The notes under the pieces: model-generated
Told to the model about the DNA's origin: nothing
Database searches by the model: none
What the model saw: only the letters and a program-made list of their open reading frames with translations
Source: Candidatus Poribacteria bacterium
GTDB taxonomy: Bacteria > Poribacteria > WGA-4E > PCPOR2b
Assembly (NCBI GenBank): GCA_965208425.1
Contig: OZ242335.1
Coordinates: forward strand, 188,544-252,543
DNA: 64,000 nt
Direction of reading: 5' to 3'
Position numbers and translations under genes: made by a program
Shown here: positions 16,399 through 32,156 of the stretch, one piece after another
How positions within the stretch are numbered: the stretch's first letter is position 1
Layout of the letters: every line of letters begins with the position of its first letter

Positions 16399-17877
16399 TC
16401 AATCCAAATAATCCATCTCCGGTAGCAAATTCCATCGGTACTGTTCTGGAGGTTGCGTTTGGCGTCCCCAATCCGCCAGAATTTTGGCTTCCGCACGTTT
16501 CTCCTCCATTTTCGCCGCGATGGCTTCCGGATCCCAGTTGTCCAGAACCTGTTGTGTCAATGTCTCCAGAACCTCTCGGCACGTTGCGTCGCCCGCTCGG
16601 TCGTGCAGTTCCGCCGGATCTTCTTTTAGGTTGAAAAGTTGCGACGGTTGTCCATGGTAGTAGTTCAGTTTCCAGTCACCACTTCGGATCATCCGATGAT
16701 AACAGCCATCATCGGTGCAATACTCGGAGAAAGCGATGTCCTCCCATTCCGCTCCTTCGCCCCGCAACAGTGGGAGTACACTTCTGCCGCGAGAATTTGG
16801 CAGGGCAGGTGCGCCGAGCGCGTCTATCATCGTCGCATTCAGGTCTAAGGAACTAACGACTCTGTCGCATCTCACACCTTCGGGCAACACGCTGGGCCAT
16901 GAAAGGATGGTGGGGACTCTCACCGAATCCTCGTAGAAGGTCTGCTTCCACCAAAGCCCATGCTCTCCCACCTGTTCGCCGTGGTCGGACATATAGAGGA
17001 TGATTGTGTTTTCCGCCAAGTCGTTTTCTTGGAGTGCAGTCAAGATCTCGCCGATCATCAGGTCCATCCGCGTGACCAACGCCCAATACGCTATCCGTGC
17101 TCTGAGGATCTCCGCATCGGAAACCTCAACGATACCGCACTGCTCTCGCCACCATCGAAAATAGGGGTGCAATTCGTCGGAGAACGGTTCGGGATGTTTC
17201 GGCATTGTCATCGCTTCATCGTAAAGGTCATAATCCTCCTGCCGCGCCACAAAAGGTTGATGTGGCAGCATGAGCCCGACGGAGATGCTGAACGGTTCGT
17301 CCAGCACACCTGCCCGCTTTCGGACGCCGAGACGGTTCAAATAATCGACTGTCGCAACGGTCACATCTTCGTCGTGAACCTGATACGCGCTTTGACCAGG
17401 ACCTGACTTTTCGAGGCTAACACGCGCAGGACCCGCCGTGCCCGTCAGCGTCCCGTGATCGACACCCTTTCCGCCGAGATAATTGGAGCCGTGATCGCCG
17501 ACCAATCGCTCGGCGTAACCGTGTAACTGATCAGGTCCTAATGAGTGCATCCGTCCAATCAGGACCGGACGGTAGCCAGCCGCCCCCATTGCATGTGCAA
17601 AGGTCGGACTCCCGGAGTCGAGGATGTGGTTGTTCGTCCAGACCTCGTTTTCATGGGGATAGCGTCCGTTCAACATCGACATCCGCGAAGGCACACAAAT
17701 TGGAGAGGGACAGTAGACGTTATCAAACACGACACCTCGCGCTGCTAACCCATCCAGATGCGGTGTCTGCACTAACGGGTCGCCGTAGCAACCGGTCACA
17801 GCGGGGTTGTGTTGATCGGAATGGATGTACAGCAGATTGGGACGTTGGGTCAAAGAACCCTGATTGTTCATAAACAC
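16399..17877 (-). CDS. Cys-type sulfatase (arylsulfatase family); no signal peptide
   Basis: Formylglycine motif CVPSR within ...SPICVPSRMSMLNG. N-terminal LLYIHSDQH metal-binding region. 492 aa. Confidence 0.9.
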   Translation of the reverse strand: MFMNNQGSLTQRPNLLYIHSDQHNPAVTGCYGDPLVQTPHLDGLAARGVVFDNVYCPSPICVPSRMSMLNGRYPHENEVWTNNHILDSGSPTFAHAMGAAGYRPVLIGRMHSLGPDQLHGYAERLVGDHGSNYLGGKGVDHGTLTGTAGPARVSLEKSGPGQSAYQVHDEDVTVATVDYLNRLGVRKRAGVLDEPFSISVGLMLPHQPFVARQEDYDLYDEAMTMPKHPEPFSDELHPYFRWWREQCGIVEVSDAEILRARIAYWALVTRMDLMIGEILTALQENDLAENTIILYMSDHGEQVGEHGLWWKQTFYEDSVRVPTILSWPSVLPEGVRCDRVVSSLDLNATMIDALGAPALPNSRGRSVLPLLRGEGAEWEDIAFSEYCTDDGCYHRMIRSGDWKLNYYHGQPSQLFNLKEDPAELHDRAGDATCREVLETLTQQVLDNWDPEAIAAKMEEKRAEAKILADWGRQTQPPEQYRWNLLPEMDYLD

Positions 17878-18344: not shown

Positions 18345-19319
18345 ATGCAACAGAGGGACGATCCTGCACATTTTATTTTAATTGGGGTTGCAGTTTTGGG
18401 GCTGACACCGCTGATGGTAAACGTTGACGCACAGGCACAGATTGCCTTCTCGTCTAACCGAGACGGGAACTGGGAAATCTACGTGATGGATGCTGATGGA
18501 AGGAATCAGCGAAGACTCACTATCACTCCCTTTTCTCATGACTTTTCACCCTCATGGTCTCCGGACGGCAAGCTCATTGCCTTTTCTTCCGAATCTGAAC
18601 GAGATGGGAACATAGAAATCTACGCGATGGGTGCGGATGGGAAGAATCATCGAAACCTCACCAATCATCCCCAGACTGACGGGAATCCCTCATGGTCACC
18701 TGACGGTGAACACATTGCCTTTGCGTCTAATAGGATTGGGAATTGGGAAATCTATGTGATGCGTGCCGATGGGAAGAATCAGCGAAGAATTACCAGAGAT
18801 GACCATGATGACTTATTCCCTTCATGGTCACCCAATGGTGAGCACATTGCCTTTGTGTCTGATAGGGATTGGAACTGGGATATCTATGTGATGGACGTCG
18901 ATTTTGGGATGGACGCCGATAGGAAGGACCAACGAAGACTCACTGAAGATGTTCGTGGGGACTTGTACCCTTCATGGTCACCCGATGGGGAACATATTGC
19001 CTTTGCGTCTATTAGGGATGGGAACTCTGAAATCTACGTGATGGACACCAATGGGCGGGATCAGCGAAACCTTACCAATCATCCCCAGGCTGACAACTAT
19101 CCCTCATGGTCACCTGACGGTGAACACATTGCCTTTGCGTCTAATAGGACTGGGAATTGGGAAATCTATGTGATGGGTGCCGATGGCAAGCGTCAGCGAA
19201 ACCTCACCAATAATCTCCATAGAGAGATTGATCCTGCATGGTCTGCCCCTGCTTTTGCAGTTACTCTCGCAGGTAAGCAGTTCACGATATGGGGGTGGCT
19301 CAAACAAGTTGTCCAATAA
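18345..19319 (+). CDS. TolB-like periplasmic beta-propeller protein (six PD40/WD40-like repeats)
   Basis: Repeating units of the form ...SPDGEHIAFAS.RDGNWEIYVMDADGKNQRRLT.... GGAGG SD. Signal peptide present. Confidence 0.8.
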   Translation: MQQRDDPAHFILIGVAVLGLTPLMVNVDAQAQIAFSSNRDGNWEIYVMDADGRNQRRLTITPFSHDFSPSWSPDGKLIAFSSESERDGNIEIYAMGADGKNHRNLTNHPQTDGNPSWSPDGEHIAFASNRIGNWEIYVMRADGKNQRRITRDDHDDLFPSWSPNGEHIAFVSDRDWNWDIYVMDVDFGMDADRKDQRRLTEDVRGDLYPSWSPDGEHIAFASIRDGNSEIYVMDTNGRDQRNLTNHPQADNYPSWSPDGEHIAFASNRTGNWEIYVMGADGKRQRNLTNNLHREIDPAWSAPAFAVTLAGKQFTIWGWLKQVVQ

Positions 19320-19577: not shown

Positions 19578-19656
19578 TAAGGATAATACTTTATATCAAC
19601 TGTGCAAGTTCTCACTGGTATTACACATTAGGCATTAAGTATAAGGGGATTGTAAA

Positions 19657-20502
19657 ATGAAAACATTACACGTTGGGATTTTCATCCTTATTCTGATGAG
19701 TGGGCATCTGAGTGCTGATGAGCCTCTAACAAATAATGAAAGCAGGATCGTGCTTAATCTTGATACTACATCAGAAGTATTCGTCAACGCCTTCATTGAC
19801 CCAATTGAGTTTACACGATACGATTTTCATGTTGAATGGGACACATTGGCGAATCTACGAGCCGCCGAGCCAGAAAAGCAGCACACCGCGTCGGTTTTCC
19901 GCGCCTTCCTGCCGAAAGGTCCTGTTTCCGTTGGCGAACTCTGGAAGATTGAGCCGCATGACGGTATCCTAGCGTTGCTCAAACAACTCCACCCCAATCC
20001 GCAAATGGATATGGTGATTGACTCAGGCGATTCCCGAGGTGCGTGGGCGTGTCTGCGCGCTTACAATGCACAATTCGCTGAAATCGCGTTTCGCATCCAT
20101 GCACATTTTGTCCTTGAAGATGGTTTTTTCACTCCCTCACAATTTGCAGGTAAACTGATTATCGCGCGTAACGATGGGAAAATCGCTTTCTTCCAAATGC
20201 ACGTTCCTGAAGGAACATTGAACTTTGATGTCGGTTGGGAACACGAAGATCACCAGTGGACCATCGGAGACAGCGGGTTTTGCTCAAGAATGGAACTCCT
20301 CGCAGGGACACAAAATGACCAGCCCCAATTCGTTGTCAGTATTTCCCAAGAAGAAGTTGAACGCAAATTAATCCTACAGTTCTACAAGTCACAGCGAATC
20401 AACTGGGTGGCGATGGACAGAGCGTTGGAGATGGCAAAAATGCTACAGAAGCCGATTCACGCGGTTGCGGTAGATGGCCCACTTGATGACGAGGCCTGCT
20501 GA
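19657..20502 (+). CDS. secreted hypothetical protein ending ...KPIHAVAVDGPLDDEAC at an in-frame TGA; thioredoxin-like (DUF255-like) context
   Basis: 281-aa ORF with a signal peptide. It terminates at TGA 20500-20502. The same frame stays open for 116 more codons (see next feature). Confidence 0.6.
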   Translation: MKTLHVGIFILILMSGHLSADEPLTNNESRIVLNLDTTSEVFVNAFIDPIEFTRYDFHVEWDTLANLRAAEPEKQHTASVFRAFLPKGPVSVGELWKIEPHDGILALLKQLHPNPQMDMVIDSGDSRGAWACLRAYNAQFAEIAFRIHAHFVLEDGFFTPSQFAGKLIIARNDGKIAFFQMHVPEGTLNFDVGWEHEDHQWTIGDSGFCSRMELLAGTQNDQPQFVVSISQEEVERKLILQFYKSQRINWVAMDRALEMAKMLQKPIHAVAVDGPLDDEAC

Positions 20503-20850
20503 GGGAGCGGAAAATTCTTGAGGGCAGTTGCTCTCTCCGACAAACCAAACATTGAGTTCCTAAACGCAATCTTCATCAATACTTGGGTACTCAATACAGA
20601 TATGAAACGGCTCCGCGATGCACAAGGGATGGACGCTATCCCTCCCTTAGCGCGGGCAATCATGCAGGGACGGAAGCAATACTCACCCGTAGACTGTCTA
20701 ATTATCTCTCCTGAACTTGAACTTCTAGGACGGCAACCGGTGAATGAGCTTGCATCAAAGAATGCATCGAAGAATTACCGCACATTTCTGGTTGAAGCGT
20801 TAACAAGAAAACACCCCGGATTGAAAGAGAATAACACAATGTCCCGATAA
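20503..20850 (+). other. same-frame continuation of 19657..20502 past the UGA (GSGKFLRAVALSDKPNIEFLNAIFINTW...); candidate selenocysteine read-through or disrupted gene
   Basis: No stop between 20503 and 20850 in the frame of the upstream ORF. The TTG-initiated track ORF 20518..20850 has no RBS of its own. Confidence 0.35.
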
Positions 20851-20979: not shown

Positions 20980-21450
20980 TTATAACCGTCGCAGCAGTGC
21001 GGATAAGAAGATTACGACTAACCCCAAAATGAGCGTCAAGTTCAGCCACGGTGCAGGACGTTTCTGAATCGGTGCGAAAACAGGATAGGGGAACGTCAGC
21101 AACACGCCGAAGGTAAATATGATAAAGACGATAAAGAGCTTAATCCCCAATACAATGATATATGTGGAAAGATTCTCAATGGGTTCTTTGGGGGCATCTT
21201 GAGACAAGGAACCCGTTGATCTCAGGAAGGCGATAAAGTTGTAAACACCTGAGAACAGAATTGTCAACAACGCAGTCCAGATAACGATCCTGAATCGGCG
21301 CAATGCTGCTTCTAGGAGTTTGGGGCCCTGGTCTTCGGGAAGTGCCTTGACAGCAGGCAATAGAATGACGCGGAGGAAGAAAAAACCGCCAATCAACAGC
21401 ACAACCGATCCGACGTGGATCCATTGTATCAAAGCAGGTAGGAATGTCAT
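20980..21450 (-). CDS. hypothetical integral membrane protein (4 predicted TM helices)
   Basis: Hydrophobic 156-aa ORF. Confidence 0.55.
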   Translation of the reverse strand: MTFLPALIQWIHVGSVVLLIGGFFFLRVILLPAVKALPEDQGPKLLEAALRRFRIVIWTALLTILFSGVYNFIAFLRSTGSLSQDAPKEPIENLSTYIIVLGIKLFIVFIIFTFGVLLTFPYPVFAPIQKRPAPWLNLTLILGLVVIFLSALLRRL

Positions 21451-21469: not shown

Positions 21470-22702
21470 TCAAGCGGGCGGTGAATGTCTCTGCGTTTGC
21501 CTGCGTTGTCCCCAGCACCTGACTACGCCTGCACCGAGAAGTAACAGTAGTCCCATCGACCAAAACATCGGTGAGAAATCGAGCCAGCCAATCAGGAATC
21601 CTCCCAAGATAGGACCGACAACCTTGCCAGCATTTTTGAGTGTACCAATCAAGCCCATCCCCGCGCCAATGTGTAGTGCACTAATGTGTGTAGATACGAG
21701 TGCCACTGTGGATGGAAAGATAAGGGCTTGTGCGGCACCAATCAATACCGCCAGCGCCATCAAGCCCAAAATACTGTGCATCAATGTAATCAACGGGAGC
21801 GCAATGCCTGCGAGAACCATTCCCACACATATTGCCCCAAAATATCCCAAGCGATCGCCAATCCATCCTCCAACAGGTTTTAACACCATGTGTACCCCCT
21901 CCTGCATCGAGAAGAAAGCTCCTACCAAGGCAACACTAATCCCTGTAGAAAGAGCATAGATAGGCAAAAATGCTTTGACGGCATAGAGAGCAATAAACAC
22001 GGTTGCTTCTAGCCCACCCGATAGCCAGACAGATGGCGTATGTGTGCCGGACTTTAGGGCATGAACAATCTGCTGACCAATCGGGGGACGGACAGCTTTG
22101 ACGCGTGGCGCAGGTTCTGAGAGTAATAGAATCGGAACAAAAGCGAGGCAGCTAAACAGTCCGATGATGGTAAAAACATTGACAGGACTCATTCCTGTTG
22201 CCAATAGCCAACCCGCAGCCGCTGGTCCGACAATATAGCCCGCGCTGCGAGCCATACCGAACCAGCCCAACTTCTCCGCTAGGCGGTCTTTTACTCCTTC
22301 CGCCACGAAGGCGAGGGTCACGGGACCGTAGATGGCTGTGGCTAAACCGTGGATAATGCGTATGCCAAACAGTTCTGCAGGGGTATGGACAAAACGATAC
22401 AGAAAGGGCATACCAGCAAAAAACACGGTCCCAACAATCAGCCACCAACGCCGTCCCCAGCGATCAGAAAGTATCCCAATCCCTGGTTTGAGAACCATGC
22501 CCGTCAGGGTAGAGACAGAGACAATAAACCCAAGAAACGCATCGGTCGCCCCCAGCGTCATTGCGAAGATCGGCAGGAGCGGTGTCTTTCCCATCTGATA
22601 AGCGGAACGCACAATAAAATCAGCGCCCGTGATACTGATGAAATTGAGCGGGCGCTTCATCACCAGATTTAAGGTAGATGTGTAGAAATTAAGTTGGCGC
22701 AT
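21470..22702 (-). CDS. MFS transporter
   Basis: Twelve hydrophobic segments. MFS motif region GILSDRWGRR. An alternative start at 22660 (MKRPLNF) is possible. Confidence 0.85.
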   Translation of the reverse strand: MRQLNFYTSTLNLVMKRPLNFISITGADFIVRSAYQMGKTPLLPIFAMTLGATDAFLGFIVSVSTLTGMVLKPGIGILSDRWGRRWWLIVGTVFFAGMPFLYRFVHTPAELFGIRIIHGLATAIYGPVTLAFVAEGVKDRLAEKLGWFGMARSAGYIVGPAAAGWLLATGMSPVNVFTIIGLFSCLAFVPILLLSEPAPRVKAVRPPIGQQIVHALKSGTHTPSVWLSGGLEATVFIALYAVKAFLPIYALSTGISVALVGAFFSMQEGVHMVLKPVGGWIGDRLGYFGAICVGMVLAGIALPLITLMHSILGLMALAVLIGAAQALIFPSTVALVSTHISALHIGAGMGLIGTLKNAGKVVGPILGGFLIGWLDFSPMFWSMGLLLLLGAGVVRCWGQRRQTQRHSPPA

Positions 22703-22728: not shown

Positions 22729-23046
22729 TTAATCAGTCAGATGAGAAACGGGAGGCAGATACTGACAGGTTGGAATAGTTTTAAGTTTCTCCTCCAGAGC
22801 ATCCTTTGCAACTTCAAGGTTATAATGCGCTTGCAGGTTGGACCACAGAGAATCGGAAACCCCAAAGTAGCGAGAAAGAAGTAATGCTGTCTCTGCAGAT
22901 ATACGCCGCTGTTCTTTGATAATCACTGTAATTCGATTCACCGGCACACCAATATCCTTTGCTAACCGGTAGGGAGTAATTCTCATCGGCTTTAGAAAAT
23001 CTTCTCTTAGGATTTCACCCGGATGAGTTGGTTGAATAACAGACAT
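22729..23046 (-). CDS. higA: HigA-family antitoxin (XRE-type HTH)
   Basis: HPGEILREDFLKPM...YRLAKDIGVPVNRITVIIKEQRRISAETALLLSRYFGVS..WSNLQ..YNL matches the HigA (COG3093) pattern. AGGAG SD. Confidence 0.8.
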   Translation of the reverse strand: MSVIQPTHPGEILREDFLKPMRITPYRLAKDIGVPVNRITVIIKEQRRISAETALLLSRYFGVSDSLWSNLQAHYNLEVAKDALEEKLKTIPTCQYLPPVSHLTD

Positions 23047-23371: not shown

Positions 23372-23462
23372 GTAAAAGGAAAGTGCAAAGCACGAAGAGA
23401 AACCGAGTTTTGCCGAAAAAACTCGGTTTCTTTGCACTAAATCTTAACATGAGCGTTTTAGG
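23372..23462. mobile_element. MITE family 2, short form (~90 bp)
   Basis: ctcatgtaaaaggaaagtgcaaagcacgaagagaaaccgagttttgccgaaaaaactcggtttctttgcactaaatcttaacatgagcg. Confidence 0.6.
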
Positions 23463-26400
23463 TTACAACGGCTGGCACATTGGCTTCACTGATGAGGTTG
23501 TTAAAAGCAGCGACATCTTCCTCAATCACTGACTTGAGTTGATCCAATTGGGCATCGATCTGGCTTGACAACTCTTCAAAGAGCTCATACGCCTGTTTCG
23601 GCGGGGCGAAGTCAGCAACTGCCACGACGCTAGTCAATCCGGCGAGCTTACCGATTAACATGGTAGGCAGCCGAAGTCGATCGCCGATGGTATCCGCTCC
23701 GGTCTGTATCAACTCCCCTTCGATGGCTTTCAGTTTTTCCTGTAAGGCTTCAGCAGCTTCACAGATTGCTTCGGCGTTGGTATCCTCCCCCGCATCTGCG
23801 CGTTTCTTCCACTCATTCGCCTGTCGCTGTATTCGGCGGAGGCGATTAATCGCTTCGTGTGTTTCTGACAGCTTATCACGAATCTGACTCCACAACTCAA
23901 ACTGAGCATCGAAATCTGCTTGACTAGCCGTCACTCGTGGATCTTTGCAAATCTCAAACGTCTGCGTCTGCGCTTGCGCACCAACCTTGAGTTGTGTCTG
24001 ATAGGTTCCCGGTGAGGCGAGCGGTCCATTATTCGGCTTATCTGGTGGCGCCTCCTGTTTGCCACTTGGTGGTTCCGTCACCGCTTCCGAGTCTGGATAG
24101 GACATATCCCACACAAAGCGATTCAATCCCGGTTCCGCGGGAATATAGCGATCGTCCTTATTGTCTGAGTCTGCTTCATCATCTTCAGCGTCTTCAGGTT
24201 TAGTAGTGAATGTTTTGATTTCTGCTCCGTCGGCGTCGAGGAACGTAAGTTCGACGGAATCAGCGGAGGTGTCTTCCAACAAGTAGTAGACAATCACCCC
24301 CTGCGGTGGTCCTTCTCCGGCATCGAGGAATCTGCGGGTGCGTTCCCCTTCAGGCGATTTTTCCAGATAGAAGGTTGCAGCGGCACCTAACCCCATCAGA
24401 TAGTTCTTTCCTGTTTCGCTGCGGAACATACCCGCGCCCCATTGCAACCATCGACGATAGGTAGCGCGAGGCTCGAACAGGTGGGGTGAAGCCTGCGCTG
24501 CCTCTGCTGACATGTGGCGTAGCGGCGTTACATCGTCCAAAATCCAGAAAGATCTGCCGTGAGTGCCAGCGACCAGATCCCCGTCCTTGATCTTTAGGTC
24601 GTAGACAGGGACGACCGGGAGATTGTTTTGTAAACGGTACCAATTCGCTCCATCGTCCAACGAGACATAGATTCCGGTTTCGGTGCCGACATAGAGGAGA
24701 CCGGACCGAACCGGATCTTCTCGAATCACACGGGTAATCTCGCCTTCAGGGAAACTCCCACTAATTATATGCCACGTCTGCCCATAATCGTCTGTCTTAT
24801 ACAGATAGGGTTGATAATCATCCAGCTTGTATCGGGTGACTGCCACATACGCTGTCGCCGGGTCGTGTGGCGAGGTTTCGATATTGCTGATTAATGACCA
24901 CTCAAGCAGGTCCGGCGGAGTGATATTTTCCCAACTTTGTCCCTCATCTCTAGAGATGTGAATCAAGCCATCATCGCTGCCAGCCCAAAAGACACCGGAT
25001 TCGTGTGACGATTCAACAAAGGCGTACACCGTCCCGTAATGCTCCGCACCGCTGGCATCTTTTGTGATGGGACCGCCTGATGGTCCAAGTTTGGTTACAT
25101 CATTACGGGTCAAATCTGGACTGATTGGTTCCCAACTGCTGCCTTCGTCCGTCGAGCGGAAGATTATATTTCCCGCTACATACAGGACGCCCGGATTGTG
25201 GGGTGAGAACGCAATAGGAAACGTCCAAGAGAAGCGATACTTAAGATCTTTTGGTCCTAAGCCGATATACTCTTCGGGCCAAACGTTGACCAAGCGGATC
25301 TGACGGGTGTGATGGTCGTAGCGTTGGAGCACCCCACTACCGCCCGGCGAGCTACCTATCGCACCGATGTAGGCGATATCGGGATTTTCGGGGTGAACCA
25401 CAATGTCACCACTTTCGCCGGTGCCAACCGGGTAACAGTCAACCCAGTGGATACCGCCATATTCACTCGCGCTTGGGGCACAGATACTGGAGTTATCCTG
25501 TTGTGTAGCGTAGACACGGTAGGGGAACCGGTTGTCGGTGTCAATGCGGTAGAACTGCGAGGTAAGTTGGTTGTAGATGGTTGTCCAGCTATCACCCCCG
25601 TTGAACGAGACACATGCACCGCCGTCGTTGCCTTCAATCATGCGTCGGGGGTTGTTCGAATCGATCCACAGATCGTGATTATCCCCGTGCGGCGTGGTGA
25701 TCTCCGTAAAGGTATGCCCTCCGTCGGTTGACTTCCACATCTTGAGATTCAGGACATATACGGTATCTGGATCTTGTGGGTCGGCGAAGATATGACAGTA
25801 GTAAAAGGGGCGATGCCACAGATCGCGGTTATCTGTCAACAGTTCCCACGTTTCCCCGCCATCGTCTGAACGGTGCAGCCCGCCCTTCTCCGCTTCGACG
25901 ATTGCCCAGACCCGATCGGATTGGGCAGGAGAGGAAGCGACACCAATCTTACCAATAAGCCCCTTGGGAAGGCCGGGTTTATTCGTGAGTTCCTCCCAAG
26001 TATCGCCGCCGTCTGTTGATTTGTAAAGGCTGCTATCGGGTCCACCGCTCGACAGTTCCCAAAAGTTGCGATAGGTTTCCCATATCGTTGCGTAGAGAAT
26101 GCGGGGGTTATGCGGATCCATTGCAAGGTCAACAGCACCCGCTTTTTCGCTGCGAAACAGGATATTTTCCCAAGTTGTCCCACCATCTTTGGAGCGAAAG
26201 ACACCGCGTTCTTCGTTTGGTCCAAAGGCATGCCCCAAGGCTGCCACATAGACTAGATCGGGGTTCTGCGGATGAATGCGAATTTTGCCGATATGACGGG
26301 TTTCCTTCAATCCGACATTTTCCCAAGCTTTACCGCCATCGGTGGACTTGTACACCCCATCGCCGTAGGAGACATCGAGGCGAATTGTAGTTTCGCCGGT

Positions 26401-26664
26401 GCCTGCGTAGATAACATTTGGATCTGCATCTGCCACCGCGATAGCGCCTACCGCAGCACTATTGAAGAACTCGTCTGTGATGTTTTCCCAGTATGTTCCT
26501 GCGTCGTCAGTCTTCCAGACACCGCCAGCACACGCGCCGAAGTAAAAGACTGCCGGCTCTGTGGGATGTCCCGCTACCGCAACAACACGCCCACCCCGTG
26601 GTGGACCGATACAACGCCATTTGAGTGATTGAAATAAATTTGAATCTGATTGAGAATTGCTCAT
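23458..26664 (-). CDS. BNR/Asp-box (Sortilin/VPS10-like) repeat glycosyl-hydrolase-like protein
   Basis: Multiple S-x-D-G-G-x-T-W Asp-box repeats (STDGGKAW, SKDGGTTW, STDGGDTW, SDDGGETW, STDGGHTF...). I re-called the start at ATG 26664 (MSNSQSDSNLF...). The track ORF reads on into MITE1. Confidence 0.75.
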   Translation of the reverse strand: MSNSQSDSNLFQSLKWRCIGPPRGGRVVAVAGHPTEPAVFYFGACAGGVWKTDDAGTYWENITDEFFNSAAVGAIAVADADPNVIYAGTGETTIRLDVSYGDGVYKSTDGGKAWENVGLKETRHIGKIRIHPQNPDLVYVAALGHAFGPNEERGVFRSKDGGTTWENILFRSEKAGAVDLAMDPHNPRILYATIWETYRNFWELSSGGPDSSLYKSTDGGDTWEELTNKPGLPKGLIGKIGVASSPAQSDRVWAIVEAEKGGLHRSDDGGETWELLTDNRDLWHRPFYYCHIFADPQDPDTVYVLNLKMWKSTDGGHTFTEITTPHGDNHDLWIDSNNPRRMIEGNDGGACVSFNGGDSWTTIYNQLTSQFYRIDTDNRFPYRVYATQQDNSSICAPSASEYGGIHWVDCYPVGTGESGDIVVHPENPDIAYIGAIGSSPGGSGVLQRYDHHTRQIRLVNVWPEEYIGLGPKDLKYRFSWTFPIAFSPHNPGVLYVAGNIIFRSTDEGSSWEPISPDLTRNDVTKLGPSGGPITKDASGAEHYGTVYAFVESSHESGVFWAGSDDGLIHISRDEGQSWENITPPDLLEWSLISNIETSPHDPATAYVAVTRYKLDDYQPYLYKTDDYGQTWHIISGSFPEGEITRVIREDPVRSGLLYVGTETGIYVSLDDGANWYRLQNNLPVVPVYDLKIKDGDLVAGTHGRSFWILDDVTPLRHMSAEAAQASPHLFEPRATYRRWLQWGAGMFRSETGKNYLMGLGAAATFYLEKSPEGERTRRFLDAGEGPPQGVIVYYLLEDTSADSVELTFLDADGAEIKTFTTKPEDAEDDEADSDNKDDRYIPAEPGLNRFVWDMSYPDSEAVTEPPSGKQEAPPDKPNNGPLASPGTYQTQLKVGAQAQTQTFEICKDPRVTASQADFDAQFELWSQIRDKLSETHEAINRLRRIQRQANEWKKRADAGEDTNAEAICEAAEALQEKLKAIEGELIQTGADTIGDRLRLPTMLIGKLAGLTSVVAVADFAPPKQAYELFEELSSQIDAQLDQLKSVIEEDVAAFNNLISEANVPAVVT

Positions 26665-26734
26665 GCTCTGTTTTCCTTTATTGTTGGGTATGAGATTTTG
26701 TGGCGAACGCAGATCTGCGTTCCCTACTGTAGTG

Positions 26735-26822
26735 GATTTTAGAATTAATGAGACACTGCCAATCGGTGAGGTTGGAAACCTCACCTACCGGGGAGCGCAA
26801 GTGTCTATTTATTTTGAGCCTC
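26735..26822. mobile_element. MITE family 1, short form
   Basis: ttttagaattaatgagacactgccaatcggtgaggttggaaacctcacctaccggggagcgcaagtgtctatttatttt. Confidence 0.6.
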
Positions 26823-29459: not shown

Positions 29460-32156
29460 ATGCACAATCTTTTTAACACATTGCAAACCTTTGAATCCGA
29501 TGGACAACGTATCCATTACTACTCCCTTCCTGCTTTAGAAGCGCAGGGTATCGGGACAGTTTCTAACTTACCTGTCAGCATACGCATTTTGCTGGAATCG
29601 CTGCTGAGAAACTATGATGATCAGCAGATTACGGAGCAGGACATTGTGGACTTGGCAAACTGGGATCCGAAACAGCCCAAATCTGTTGAAATCCCGTTTA
29701 AGCCAGCTCGTGTGCTTGCCCAAGATTTTACGGGTGTCCCTCTCCTCGTCGATCTGGCGGCGATGCGTTCGGCGGTGGAGGAACTCGGCGGCGATCCGCA
29801 GATTATTGAGCCGCTCGTCCCTGTCGATCTGGTCATTGATCACTCCGTTCAGGTGGATGCCTATGGAACGGCGAATGCGCTACAGATTAACACCCAAAGG
29901 GAATTTGAGCGGAATAAGGAGCGGTACGAGTTCCTGAAGTGGGGGCAGCAGGCTTTTGATAAGTTTCGGGTGATTCCGCCCTCCATCGGGATCGTCCATC
30001 AGGTGAATCTGGAATATCTCGCCAAATTGGTTGTTCCTGATGCGGTCAACGGCGAAACAGTTGCTTATCCCGATACATTGGTGGGGACCGATTCCCATAC
30101 CACCATGATCAACGGTCTCGGAATCGTTGGCTGGGGTGTTGGCGGTATCGAAGCGGAAGCCGCCATGCTCGGTCAGCCGGTTTACATCCTGACACCGGAG
30201 GTGTTAGGGGTTCACATGAAAGGGACGCTCAAAGAGGGTGTAACAGCGACAGATCTCGTCCTAACGGTTGTGCAGCGATTGCGAGAGACAAACGTCGTCG
30301 GCAAATTCGTGGAGTTCTTTGGCGAAGGAGTCGAGGTGCTCTCAACCCCAGATCGAGCGACTATTTCCAACATGTGTCCCGAATACGGTGCGACGGTCGG
30401 CTTCTTTCCCTCGGATGAAGCGTCGGTGGATTACCTTCGGGCAACGGGCCGCGATGAAGCGGATCTGGAGTTGGTCACGACGTACCTGAAGAACCAGAAT
30501 ATGTTCGGTATCCCGAAAGCGGGTGAGGTGGAATATTCTGAGGTGTTGATGATTGACCTTGATGCGATTGAGCCGAGCATTGCAGGTCCGAAACGACCGC
30601 AGGATCGGATTGAACTTTCAAAAGTTAAGGAGACATTCCCGCACCTGTTGACAACACCGCTTACGGAGGGCGGCTACGGGCTTTCTCAAGGGGAGATTGT
30701 GGAGCACCGTCAGCGGGCAGAAGCCGCAGGCAGCATTACCCACGGCGATGTCGCAATCGCCGCCATCACTAGCTGCACCAACACCAGCAATCCGTCGGTG
30801 ATGATCGCCGCCGGTCTGGTTGCCAAGAAAGCGGTCGAACACGGCATCCGCGTCCCCGATTCCGTCAAGACCAGTTTAGCACCCGGATCCCGCGTTGTCA
30901 CAGAGTACCTGCAAGGGACAGGATTGTTGCCCTATCTGGAGAAGTTAGGCTTTAACGTCGTAGGATATGGCTGCACGACCTGCATCGGGAATAGTGGTCC
31001 CTTAGATGAAGAGATCCAAAGTGCGATTGAGGCGGGAAATCTGGTCGCTGTCAGCGTGTTAAGTGGTAACCGAAATTTCGAGGCACGCGTACACCGCGAT
31101 GTCAAAGCCAGCTTCCTGATGTCTCCGCCGCTCGTTGTCGCCTACGCGCTTGCCGGACGGATTGATGTCGATCTAACGAGTGAACCGTTAGGTCATAACG
31201 ATGCTAATGAACCGGTCTATTTGAGAGATGTATGGCCCACGCGACAGGAGATTGCTGATCTGATCGCCCAGTCGCTGGATGCCAACACGTTCAAACGCCT
31301 CTATGCTGAAATCGCCAACCAAGCGCCAGAATGGGATGAATTAGAGATCCCTACAGGTGAACTGTATCGCTGGAGTGAGGAGAGTACCTATATCCAGAAA
31401 CCACCGTTCTTTGAGGAGTTCGAGTTGGAACCTGCGGCAATCACAGACATTCAAGACGCAAGGGTTCTCGCTATTCTGGGAGATTCTGTCACAACAGACC
31501 ACATCTCCCCCGCCGGTGCGATTGGGGCGGACAGCCCGGCTGGAAAATATCTGATTGAACACGGTGTTGAGAGAAGAGACTTTAACACTTACGGCGCAAG
31601 GCGTGGTAACGACCGGATAATGAGTCGCGGAACGTTTGCCAATAACCGTATTAAGAACGCAATGCTACCCGATGTCGAAGGCGGTTATACTGTCACGTAT
31701 CCTTCCGGAGAGCAGACGACGATGTATGAGGCGGGTCAGCATTACCTTCAGGGCAACACGCCGCTCGTTGTTTTCACGGGTAAAGAATACGGTTCTGGCA
31801 GTTCGAGGGATTGGGCGGCGAAGGGACCCAAGCTATTGGGGGTCAAAGCCGTTGTCTCCGAAAGTTACGAGCGCATCCACCGCAGCAACCTGATCGGCAT
31901 GGGCATTTTGCCGTTGGAATTCAAGGAGGGCGAGAGCGCAGCGTCGCTCGGCTTGACGGGGAGTGAGGTTATCAGCATCACCGGTTTTGCGGACAATCTG
32001 CAACCGGGTCAAACCGCCACGATGGCATGGGTTGACGAATCGGGGACGAAGCGATCAACGGAATTGCTGATCCGAATCGATGCGCCCATTGAGGTGGAGT
32101 ACTACCAACACGGTGGGATTCTAGATTATGTTATCAGAAATCTGATGACGGATTAA
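29460..32156 (+). CDS. acnA: aconitate hydratase A
   Basis: 898 aa. Conserved aconitase A blocks throughout (e.g. [27 protein letters not shown], Cys ligands in SCTNTSN and [11 protein letters not shown], and the C-terminal swivel domain). Confidence 0.95.

What the first reader, a model, noticed from the sequence alone, without database searches (positions are those of the whole stretch)
19657..20850. In-frame UGA at the predicted redox-active position of a secreted thioredoxin-like (DUF255-like) protein: candidate selenoprotein
The 281-codon ORF ends ...MAKMLQKPIHAVAVDGPLDDEAC-TGA. The same frame continues GSGKFLRAVALSDKPNIEFLNAIFINTWV... for 116 more codons. The local pattern (KPI + beta-strand, loop, C-U-G-x-G-K + helix, then a hydrophobic strand) resembles the beta1-alpha1 active-site region of thioredoxin-fold / DUF255 domains. 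The CxxC position is occupied by Cys-UGA, a Cys-Sec pair. A small hairpin (gagggc-aguu-gcucuc, loop containing GU) starts 18 nt downstream of the UGA, where bacterial SECIS elements sit. Alternatives are a disrupted gene or two separate genes, though the downstream part lacks a start codon with an RBS.
Basis: partly seen in the sequence, partly recalled or inferred. Interest (0 to 1): 0.6.

Follow-up and report, generated by a model that had tools for sequence, protein, structure and literature searches.

The report
Bacterial selenoprotein N homologue gene
The apparent stop codon inside this gene almost certainly encodes selenocysteine, and the protein is a bacterial (sponge-symbiont) relative of animal selenoprotein N, a human muscle-disease protein for which I found no described bacterial counterpart.

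Summary
ORF 19657-20502 ends Cys-TGA and the same frame stays open to TAA at 20850. In 121 related gene copies from Candidatus Poribacteria genomes the codon is TGA 118 times, Gly 3 times, and never TAA, TAG or Cys. The downstream frame is always open (mostly 240-390 codons) and under purifying selection. Synonymous variation is nearly frozen from the Cys codon to codon +12. A 6-bp hairpin (20520-20535; loop AGUU/AGGU with an invariant G) starts 17 nt after the UGA. It is paired in 99.7% of cells, with a few compensatory changes. More distant bacterial relatives carry TGT (Cys) at this position and lack the hairpin. Other distant relatives keep TGA with a different hairpin at a similar distance. 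TGA is an ordinary stop elsewhere in the window. Published COG tables list SelA/SelB/SelD in three Poribacteria genomes, one of which carries a family member. The whole protein is homologous to animal selenoprotein N (SELENON), including its S-C-U-G motif. It has a signal peptide instead of SELENON's EF-hand and membrane anchor. This family is absent from a 2026 catalogue of 119 prokaryotic selenoprotein families and from NCBIfam.

The parts
19657..20850 (+). Complete gene of a 397-residue SelN-like selenoprotein (281 codons, UGA = Sec282, 115 codons, TAA)
   Evidence: The reading frame is conserved through the TGA in 118 of 121 related gene copies. Third-position substitutions dominate downstream of the UGA against the closest relatives: 20 vs 5/4, 16 vs 4/5, 40 vs 13/9.
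19643..19649 (+). Shine-Dalgarno-like AAGGGGA, 7 nt before the ATG
   Evidence: Read directly from the sequence. This is an inference only.
19657..19716 (+). Probable Sec-type signal peptide (MKTLHVGIFILILMSGHLSA|DE)
   Evidence: Sequence features: basic N-terminus, hydrophobic core, small residues before the putative cleavage site. The same kind of N-terminus appears in the homologues of alignment A1. No signal-peptide predictor was available, so this is inferred.
19744..20346 (+). N-terminal beta-rich domain (residues about 30-230) shared with animal selenoprotein N (WACLRAYN, FRIHAxF and TPSQF motifs)
20404..20811 (+). Thioredoxin-fold domain (residues about 250-385) of the DsbH/DUF255/Thioredoxin_7/UAS type, interrupted by the UGA in its active-site loop
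20497..20499 (+). Cys281 codon TGC, the vicinal partner of Sec
   Evidence: TGC in 114 of 114 distinct Sec-type gene sequences. It is TGT or AGC in the three Gly-type copies.
20500..20502 (+). UGA read as selenocysteine (Sec282) within the motif A/S-C-U-G-S-G-K
   Evidence: TGA in 118 of 121 copies, and never TAA or TAG. TGT (Cys) at the same position in distant relatives. It matches the Sec position of the SCUG motif of SELENON.
20497..20538 (+). Zone of suppressed synonymous variation (codons -1 to +12 around the UGA)
   Evidence: Entropy among synonymous codons is 0-0.9 bit here. Examples: AGG 108/114, GCA 111/111, CTC 113/113. The Gly, Pro and Leu codons at -8 to -6 show 1.7-2.1 bits.
20520..20535 (+). 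SECIS-like hairpin GAGGGC-AGUU-GCUCUC (6-bp stem, 4-nt loop, G at loop position 2). The apical loop begins 23 nt after the UGA.
   Evidence: Alignment A2 of 100 distinct sequences: 99.7% of cells paired, against 49-82% when the partner is slid. A at column 30 occurs only with U at column 39, and A at column 31 only with U at column 38. The loop G is invariant. Cys-type relatives lack the hairpin. Distant Sec-type relatives have other hairpins at a similar distance.
20848..20850 (+). True stop codon TAA
   Evidence: Final stops across the family are a normal mixture: TAA 60, TGA 41, TAG 15.

Best explanation
The region 19657-20850 is one gene for an exported selenoprotein of a Poribacteria-like sponge symbiont. 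UGA 20500-20502 is decoded as selenocysteine. The inferred mechanism is that the hairpin at 20520-20535 recruits SelB carrying Sec-tRNA(Sec) to the ribosome. That would give a 397-residue protein made of a signal peptide, a beta-rich domain, and a thioredoxin-fold domain with a vicinal Cys281-Sec282 pair (motif A/S-C-U-G-S-G-K) in the active-site loop before helix alpha-1.

The protein belongs to a large, mostly mis-annotated bacterial family that is homologous over both domains to animal selenoprotein N (SELENON, motif S-C-U-G). By analogy with SELENON and with the G-C-U-G end of thioredoxin reductase, the Cys-Sec pair most likely cycles between selenol/thiol and selenenylsulfide. It would then act as an extracytoplasmic reductase or redox sensor for oxidised thiols.

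Steps shown here: the conserved UGA; the conserved and selected downstream frame; the RNA-level constraint and hairpin; Cys-type homologues; the thioredoxin fold; and homology to SelN. Steps inferred: actual Sec insertion, export, and the catalytic cycle and substrates.
For: **UGA conservation**
- The codon is TGA in 118 of 121 copies across 75 Poribacteria loci. It is Gly in 3 and never TAA or TAG. The genes' real stops are TAA 60, TGA 41, TAG 15.

**Downstream frame**
- It is open for 105-390 codons and conserved.
- Changes against close relatives are mostly at third codon positions.

**RNA-level constraint**
- Synonymous sites are frozen from codon -1 to +12.
- The hairpin is paired in 99.7% of cells, with compensatory A-U changes and an invariant loop G.
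- A competing long stem has no such support.

**Sec/Cys pair**
- P0127, P0129, P0139, P0140 and P0173 read ...ESC-C-GSGK.... The codon is TGT and no hairpin is present in the two loci checked.

**Distant Sec-type relatives**
- L078 and L080 keep TGA, 104-106 in-frame codons, and a different hairpin with a loop G 12-17 nt downstream.

**Genetic code**
- TGA is a normal stop in this window. Of 35 long ORFs, 15 end in TGA. Twelve of the other 14 have only 0-49 codons before the next stop; the 97-codon exception overlaps another gene.

**Sec machinery**
- SelA, SelB and SelD COGs are listed for Poribacteria bin70, bin44 and WGA-3G (PMC5649159 Table S4).
- L053 comes from WGA-3G and carries a TGA member.
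- Sec-type hydrogenases are reported from Poribacteria (PMC13582414).

**Fold**

**Homology to SelN**
- The family profile hits Nematostella, jellyfish and wombat proteins at E 9e-40 to 8e-35 against 1.84e9 sequences.
- BLASTP gives E 1e-23.
- The wombat protein's relatives are named Selenoprotein N, including a human entry.
- The SCUG motif is documented in PMC8584023.
Against: - No selA, selB, selC or selD gene and no tRNA is in the window or in any fetched locus. The machinery is therefore not shown for this particular genome.
- There is no direct evidence of selenium incorporation.
- The hairpin is small (6 bp). Taken alone it is not more stable than shuffled sequence, and it matches no Rfam family.
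- Its covariation is modest (5 cells with changes on both sides) because the stem overlaps conserved codons.
- Within Poribacteria the non-Sec variants carry Gly, Trp or Thr rather than Cys.
- The active-site loop of the model has low confidence (pLDDT below 50 at residues 273-284). The register relative to CxxC is ambiguous.
- The function is inferred only by analogy.
Confidence: 0.87

Rival explanations
1. UGA is read through with help from the hairpin, but the inserted residue is not selenocysteine. It could be Cys delivered by a SelB-dependent recoding tRNA (tRNA-ReC / SelC*), or Trp or Gly by near-cognate decoding.
For: - tRNA-ReC systems that use SECIS-like elements are described in PMC13582414.
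- Poribacterial non-UGA variants carry Gly or Trp at the site.
- No tRNA-Sec could be examined.
Against: - SelA and SelD, which make Sec-tRNA, are reported in Poribacteria together with SelB.
- The site corresponds to the known Sec of animal SELENON.
- Retention of TGA in 118 of 121 copies argues against Cys being the product. A single mutation to TGT or TGC would give Cys without any recoding cost.
Confidence: 0.07
2. These are two separate genes. The TGA is a genuine stop, and the downstream part is translated on its own from the TTG at 20518 (translational coupling), with GGGAG at 20503-20507 serving as its ribosome-binding site.
For: - A TTG with an upstream GGGAG exists in the window.
- Gene callers in public data do call downstream ORFs that start MRAV....
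Against: - The putative start codon is CTG in 72 of 114 distinct sequences.
- The five codons between the TGA and that position (G-S-G-K-x) are conserved as amino acids and are part of the SelN motif.
- The stop would split a thioredoxin fold between strand beta-1 and helix alpha-1.
- The stop is never TAA or TAG.
- Cys-, Gly- and Trp-type relatives are single continuous polypeptides.
Confidence: 0.03
3. This is a pseudogene: a once continuous gene disrupted by a nonsense mutation, or a sequencing error.
For: The window copy is shorter than most paralogues and lacks the C-terminal beta domain.
Against: - The same TGA occurs in 118 copies from dozens of independent assemblies.
- Both halves are under purifying selection against the closest relatives L001 and L002, which share the short architecture.
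Confidence: 0.01

Closest known systems
Selenoprotein N (SELENON / SEPN1) of animals
   Same: - Homologous over the beta-rich domain and the thioredoxin-like domain. The family profile scores E 9e-40 to 8e-35 and BLASTP gives 28% identity at E 1e-23.
- Shared motifs include FRIHAEF and (T/S)P(S/A)QF(A/T)G.
- The site ...LDD(E/Q)(S/A)C-U-GSG(K/R)xLR... has Sec at the same position as the SCUG motif.
   Different: - No EF-hand and no N-terminal membrane anchor; a cleavable-looking signal peptide instead.
- Bacterial gene, with the recoding hairpin inside the coding sequence just after the UGA rather than in a 3'-UTR SECIS.
- Many tandem paralogues per genome (up to 4 in 13 kb).
- Variable C-terminal extra domains, absent in the window copy.
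- In a rough neighbour-joining tree the animal proteins form their own clade outside the poribacterial clade.
Thioredox_DsbH (DUF255, PF03190), Thioredoxin_7 (PF13899) and DsbD-gamma-like thioredoxin domains
   Same: - The KPIxxxx strand and the LNExF(I/V) helix/strand motifs align.
   Different: - The window protein does not reach any Pfam threshold. Only 2-3 of 27 family members give E about 0.02.
- The motif is C-U-G-S-G instead of C-x-x-C. One redox residue is Sec and the classical second Cys is missing or displaced.
- An extra N-terminal domain is present that these families do not have.
C-terminal Gly-Cys-Sec-Gly redox centre of mammalian thioredoxin reductase
   Same: An adjacent Cys-Sec pair followed by Gly. 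The SELENON literature itself draws this comparison (PMC8584023). It suggests selenenylsulfide chemistry.
   Different: The protein is unrelated. There the motif sits on a flexible C-terminal tail of a flavoenzyme, whereas here it lies in the active-site loop of a thioredoxin fold. The resemblance concerns chemistry only and was not tested.
[quoted passage not shown]
   Same: These are bacterial Sec-containing thioredoxin-fold proteins decoded through an intragenic SECIS. They are predicted by the same kind of evidence: conserved UGA, Cys homologues and a hairpin (PMC13188914 Table 1).
   Different: - No NCBIfam model, including those for catalogued selenoproteins, matches the window protein.
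- The motif (CU, not CxxU or UxxC) and the domain architecture differ.
- SelN is not among the 119 families listed.

Membership tests
Bacterial selenoprotein gene (Sec-UGA recoding) | In-frame UGA conserved among homologues, never replaced by another stop codon | tested here: met
   TGA in 118 of 121 copies, Gly codons in 3, and no TAA or TAG. Distant members L078 and L080 also have TGA.
Bacterial selenoprotein gene (Sec-UGA recoding) | Coding potential continues in the same frame after the UGA, under purifying selection | tested here: met
   In-frame extensions of 105-390 codons. Differences by codon position 1/2/3 are 5/4/20, 4/5/16 and 13/9/40 against relatives.
Bacterial selenoprotein gene (Sec-UGA recoding) | Homologues with Cys aligned to the UGA | tested here: met
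   P0127, P0129, P0139, P0140 and P0173 have Cys at the site. The codon TGT was verified in L076 and L077. Within Poribacteria only Gly, Trp and Thr variants were seen.
Bacterial selenoprotein gene (Sec-UGA recoding) | bSECIS-type stem-loop. As I recall the Zhang & Gladyshev 2005 model, the apical loop lies 16-37 nt after the UGA. The requirement for G in the first two loop positions is stated in PMC13582414. | tested here: met
   The hairpin is at 20520-20535 and its loop starts 23 nt after the UGA. The loop is A-G-U/G-U with an invariant G. 99.7% of cells are paired, with compensatory changes. Synonymous sites are frozen. No Rfam family matches. bSECISearch itself was not available.
Bacterial selenoprotein gene (Sec-UGA recoding) | selA, selB, selC and selD present in the same genome | not testable with these tools
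   None is in the 64-kb window or in the fetched loci, and whole genomes could not be scanned. Literature: the Poribacteria genomes bin70, bin44 and WGA-3G each have SelA, SelB and SelD COGs. WGA-3G carries family member L053.
Bacterial selenoprotein gene (Sec-UGA recoding) | Selenium demonstrated in the protein | not testable with these tools
   This needs 75Se labelling or mass spectrometry.
Selenoprotein N (SELENON) | Significant sequence homology across the conserved core | tested here: met
   The profile hits P0208 (Nematostella) at 8.6e-40, P0234 (Sanderia) at 1.5e-35 and P0243 (Vombatus) at 8.3e-35, covering profile positions about 68-368. BLASTP gives E 1e-23. Relatives of P0243 are named Selenoprotein N.
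Selenoprotein N (SELENON) | S-C-U-G redox motif with Sec at the homologous position | tested here: met
   The window has DDEA-C-U-G-SGK, and most family members have DES-C-U-G-SGK. Animal gene models read ALDDQSC-[gap of two residues]-SGRTLRE, with the gap exactly at the Sec and Gly positions. The SCUG motif is stated in PMC8584023. The full human sequence with U is from my memory only.
Selenoprotein N (SELENON) | EF-hand calcium-binding domain and N-terminal membrane anchor (ER type II protein) | tested here: not met
   No EF-hand or any other Pfam hit. The N-terminus looks like a cleavable signal peptide. The animal hits do carry the EF-hand.
Selenoprotein N (SELENON) | Eukaryotic SECIS in the 3' UTR | tested here: not met
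   No Rfam SECIS family matches in the window. The conserved structure is a bacterial-type hairpin inside the coding region.
Thioredox_DsbH / DUF255 and Thioredoxin_7 | Thioredoxin fold of this subtype | tested here: met
   [not shown]
Thioredox_DsbH / DUF255 and Thioredoxin_7 | Match to the Pfam model above its gathering score | tested here: not met
   The window protein has no hit. Among 27 domain sequences, 3 reach E 0.025 and 2 reach E 0.02. The PDB sequence-profile search found nothing.
Thioredox_DsbH / DUF255 and Thioredoxin_7 | CxxC active site, with Sec or Cys at one of its positions | tested here: inconclusive
   With Sec coded as C, hhalign places it on the first Cys of C-H-W-C (E 3.9e-4). 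With Sec masked as X, the family's Cys falls on the second Cys (E 1.2e-3). The model is of low confidence at residues 273-284.

The most novel reading that the evidence does not exclude
Animal selenoprotein N may not be a metazoan invention. It may be one branch of a large, mostly bacterial family of exported Cys-Sec (or Cys-Cys) thioredoxin-fold proteins that has stayed hidden because gene callers cut every Sec-type member in two. In Poribacteria the family has expanded into tandem arrays and may be their most numerous selenoprotein family. In other bacteria the same module is fused to, or encoded next to, ECF sigma factors, which suggests it works as an extracytoplasmic redox sensor. That would parallel the proposed sensor and reductase role of SELENON in the ER. 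Bacterial members could serve as tractable models for the biochemistry and structure of a human myopathy protein.
Probability: 0.5. Interest if true: 0.85.

Novelty: new variant of a known kind. Interest (0 to 1): 0.72.

Why it matters
SELENON is a human disease gene (SELENON-related myopathy). As far as I know its substrates and catalytic cycle are still debated and it has no experimentally solved structure. A bacterial branch that keeps the Sec residue and the S-C-U-G motif offers several things:

- simple, soluble, signal-peptide-only versions for structural and enzymological work;
- natural Sec, Cys and Gly variants to compare;
- a way to ask where the animal protein came from.

For microbiology, it adds a family missing from the current catalogue of prokaryotic selenoproteins. 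It also suggests that sponge symbionts invest heavily in selenium: at least 118 TGA-bearing gene copies were found in the 75 fetched loci, with up to 4 in tandem. For annotation, hundreds of database clusters (89 of the best 150 representatives) are N-terminal halves ending ...D(E/Q)SC. Many others are spurious 'MRAV...' C-terminal halves. Both kinds could be merged into single selenoprotein entries.

Tried and rejected
- **Family scans of the concatenated protein:** Pfam and NCBIfam gave no real hit.
- **RNA and tRNA scans:** Rfam at gathering and at permissive thresholds found no SECIS family. ARAGORN on the window and all loci found no tRNA at all, so no selC.
- **Single-sequence folding:** the hairpin region is not better than shuffles, so structure alone proves nothing.
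- **Alternative long stem:** pairing UGA-GGGAGCGG with the 3' arm gives 84% pairing, an A-C mismatch in 84% of sequences and no covariation. Rejected in favour of the short hairpin.
- **Small helix proposed by RNAalifold:** it pairs the UGC-UG of the Cys and Sec codons with CGGCA, and shows only one-sided changes. I left it open.
- **Genome-wide UGA reassignment (codes 4 or 25):** rejected. TGA ends 15 of 35 long ORFs with no meaningful extensions.
- **PDB searches:** the sequence-profile search of the thioredoxin domain found nothing.
- **AlphaFold-database fold search:** not available. The SelN link therefore rests on sequence, not on fold comparison.
- **Conserved redox partner in the neighbourhood:** none such as DsbD/CcdA was found. 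The only recurrent neighbour is a PD40/TolB-like protein, a family that is abundant in these genomes anyway.
- **Promoter and terminator scan:** nothing above chance.
- **Recent host-to-symbiont transfer of SelN:** not supported by a rough neighbour-joining tree, in which animals form a separate clade. That tree is too crude to give a direction of transfer.
- **Literature searches for a described bacterial SelN:** nothing found. This is absence within the held library only.
Full report
**1. Observation**

The sequence is as described.
- An ATG at 19657 opens 281 codons ending ...KPIHAVAVDGPLDDEAC.
- TGA follows at 20500-20502, then 115 further sense codons in the same frame (GSGKFLRAVALSDKPNIEFLNAIFINTWVLN...) and TAA at 20848-20850.
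- The hairpin GAGGGC-AGUU-GCUCUC lies at 20520-20535, with 17 nt between it and the UGA.
- By itself the hairpin folds no better than shuffled sequence.
- Neither Pfam, NCBIfam nor Rfam recognises anything here.

Everything therefore depends on comparison with related genes.

**2. Comparative evidence for recoding**

Protein search:
- A protein search found 1,434 relatives. Most are 277-282 residues long and end exactly at ...DE(A/S)C.
- A few are full length and carry Gly, Trp or Thr at the UGA position.

Genome scan:
- A scan of one genome per species returned 328 relatives.
- The 75 loci kept all come from Candidatus Poribacteria, which are sponge symbionts.

In those loci I located 121 gene copies.
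- **Codon at the site:** TGA in 118 copies, GGC or GGA in 3, and never TAA, TAG or a Cys codon. The genes' real stops are TAA 60, TGA 41 and TAG 15.
- **Downstream frame:** it stays open for 105-390 codons and reads C-U-GSGKxLRAxVLSDDxxIxFLNENFINTWV.
- **Selection:** against the closest relatives, downstream substitutions fall mainly on third codon positions (20 vs 5 and 4; 16 vs 4 and 5).
- **Synonymous variation:** it is almost absent from codon -1 (TGC 114/114) to codon +12 (AGG 108/114, GCA 111/111, GTC, CTC 113/113). Four- and six-fold degenerate codons a few positions upstream show 1.7-2.1 bits.
- **Genetic code:** TGA is a normal stop elsewhere in the window.

**3. The RNA element**

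- In an alignment of 100 distinct 60-mers, the hairpin is paired in 99.7% of cells. When the partner is slid the figure drops to 49-82%.
- A replaces G in the 5' arm only where the partner is U (5 and 3 sequences).
- The G at loop position 2 is invariant.
- A competing longer stem fails the same test.
- The loop starts 23 nt after the UGA, and its G fits the published bacterial SECIS consensus (PMC13582414). From memory, the 23-nt distance also fits the 16-37 nt rule of bSECISearch.
- The three Gly-type copies show early relaxation. The Cys codon becomes TGT or AGC, and one copy loses the loop G.

**4. Wider family**

- A profile search of 1.84 billion representative proteins found 776 clusters (490 at E <= 1e-10). 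Most either end at the Cys before the Sec or start six codons after it. In other words they are halves produced by gene callers.
- **Cys-type members:** five full-length representatives carry Cys at the Sec position (...DESC-C-GSGK...). In the two loci I checked (one of them an ENA contig of 12.7 Mb) the codon is TGT and the hairpin is absent.
- **Distant Sec-type members:** two were checked in DNA (L078, GC 59%; L080). Both keep TGA and 104-106 in-frame codons. Their hairpins are different, GCGAGCA-GGUC-UGCUCGC and ACGCUC-CGUGC-GAGCGU, and start 17 and 12 nt after the UGA.

This is the classical signature of a bacterial selenoprotein family.

**5. Sec machinery**

- No sel gene or tRNA lies in the window or in the loci. 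Whole genomes could not be scanned.
- Slaby et al. 2017 (PMC5649159, Table S4) list SelA, SelB and SelD COGs in all three Poribacteria genomes they analysed: bin70, bin44 and WGA-3G.
- Locus L053 comes from WGA-3G and carries a TGA member.
- A 2026 paper reports Sec-type hydrogenases from Poribacteria.

**6. What the protein is**

The AlphaFold2 model (pTM 0.78) has four parts:
- a signal-peptide-like N-terminus;
- a confident beta-rich domain (residues about 30-230);
- a helical linker;
- a thioredoxin fold (about 250-385), with Cys281-Sec282 in the loop before helix alpha-1.

The decisive result is that the family profile also hits animal proteins at E 9e-40 to 8e-35. These come from Nematostella, a jellyfish and a wombat.
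- They carry an EF-hand and the sequence WGALDDQSC[..]SGRTLRE...LLNE(K/S)FISTWSL.
- The wombat protein's relatives are named Selenoprotein N, including a human entry.
- BLASTP between the window protein and the wombat protein gives E 1e-23 over residues 104-310. The only gap falls at the two residues U-G that the animal gene models skip.
- SELENON is defined by an EF-hand and an SCUG motif (PMC8584023).

The window gene is therefore a bacterial homologue of selenoprotein N that keeps the Sec and its neighbouring Cys. It lacks the EF-hand and membrane anchor, and it uses a bacterial intragenic SECIS.

**7. Likely mechanism**

- **Decoding (inferred from the anatomy):** SelB with Sec-tRNA binds the hairpin while the ribosome sits at the UGA.
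- **Protein (inferred by analogy):** it is exported. Its vicinal Cys-Sec pair cycles through a selenenylsulfide, as proposed for SELENON and thioredoxin reductase, and reduces or senses oxidised thiols outside the cytoplasm.
- **Diversification:** tandem paralogues with different C-terminal domains suggest diversified targets.
- **Possible sensory role:** ECF sigma domains are fused N-terminally to the SelN-like module in P0129 (Cys type) and P0180 (cut at the Sec). An ECF sigma gene also sits just upstream in L077. This hints at a sensory role in some lineages.

**8. Novelty**

- The 2026 catalogue of 119 prokaryotic selenoprotein families does not contain SelN or a DUF255-like C-U family.
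- NCBIfam release 20 has no matching model.
- Five targeted literature searches found no description of bacterial SelN-like proteins.
- SelN is reported from sponges to vertebrates (PMC3473315).
- A rough tree places animals as a separate clade among diverse metagenomic members, not inside the poribacterial clade.

I rate this a new variant of a known kind. My confidence is high that it is a real selenoprotein gene and a SelN homologue. Its biochemical role remains uncertain. There is also a residual chance that the bacterial family has been described somewhere outside the library I could search.

Noticed in passing
P0129, P0180 (proteins); L077:1796-2824: The SelN-like module occurs as the C-terminal part of proteins whose N-terminus is an ECF sigma factor (Sigma70_r2 and r4_2). 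P0129 is Cys-type, and P0180 is cut at the Sec. In L077 an ECF sigma gene lies directly upstream of a Cys-type member. This suggests a sensor role.
   Followed up: partly
L003:10379, L022:6928, L024:6925; proteins P0015, P0016, P0029: Within Poribacteria the rare non-Sec paralogues carry Gly (GGC or GGA), Trp or Thr at the Sec position, not Cys. Some also lose the neighbouring Cys. These may be redox-inactive derivatives. The Gly copies show relaxation of the TGC codon and, in one case, of the loop G.
   Followed up: partly
L045, L051, L071 (4 copies each within about 13 kb); L046/L052 (4 distinct tandem copies on CBDBPM010000002.1): The family forms tandem arrays, and several separate loci occur per chromosome (for example OZ242349.1 holds L012, L021 and L029). 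Sponge symbionts therefore appear to carry unusually many copies of one selenoprotein family.
   Followed up: partly
L006:2868-4499: A divergent paralogue (…IHVLLTWGVFDDESC-TGA-ASGKTLRTGVLS…) has the hairpin GAGGAC-AGGU-GUCCUC and a different C-terminal domain ending ...VEGVWFIYDNE. The same tail is seen in L003:6838.
   Followed up: no
window 20497-20512 (alignment A2, columns 4-8 with 15-19): RNAalifold also proposes a small helix that pairs UGC-UG (the Cys codon and the start of the UGA) with CGGCA. The Cys codon is TGC in all 114 distinct Sec-type gene sequences. The helix shows only one-sided changes, so its reality is open.
   Followed up: partly
public protein clusters P0121-P0269: 89 of the best 150 representative clusters end ...D(D/E)(E/Q)(S/A)C. 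Many others begin MRA(V/G)(V/A)LS..., which is a spurious start at the Leu or Met six codons after the Sec. This is systematic mis-annotation of a whole family.
   Followed up: yes
P0243, P0276, P0308, P0208, P0358 (animal SELENON models): Automated animal gene models handle the Sec codon badly. Some delete the two residues U-G (wombat, donkey). Others insert unrelated residues (coelacanth, Nematostella) or switch to another reading (human isoform A0A804HLD6).
   Followed up: no
window 16399-17877 (-), 18345-19319 (+), 20980-21450 (-), 21470-22702 (-), 22729-23046 (-), 23458-26784 (-), 29460-32156 (+): The neighbours are a sulfatase, a PD40/TolB-like beta-propeller protein, a CopD-like membrane protein, an MFS transporter, an HTH_3 (HigA-like) protein, a Sortilin/BNR protein and an aconitase. 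This is typical poribacterial content, with no visible functional link to the selenoprotein. A PD40 protein recurs next to family members in 25 loci.
   Followed up: partly
L076:6085-7191: A reverse-transcriptase (RVT_1) gene lies about 1.9 kb downstream of the Cys-type family member, on a 12.7-Mb metagenomic contig.
   Followed up: no
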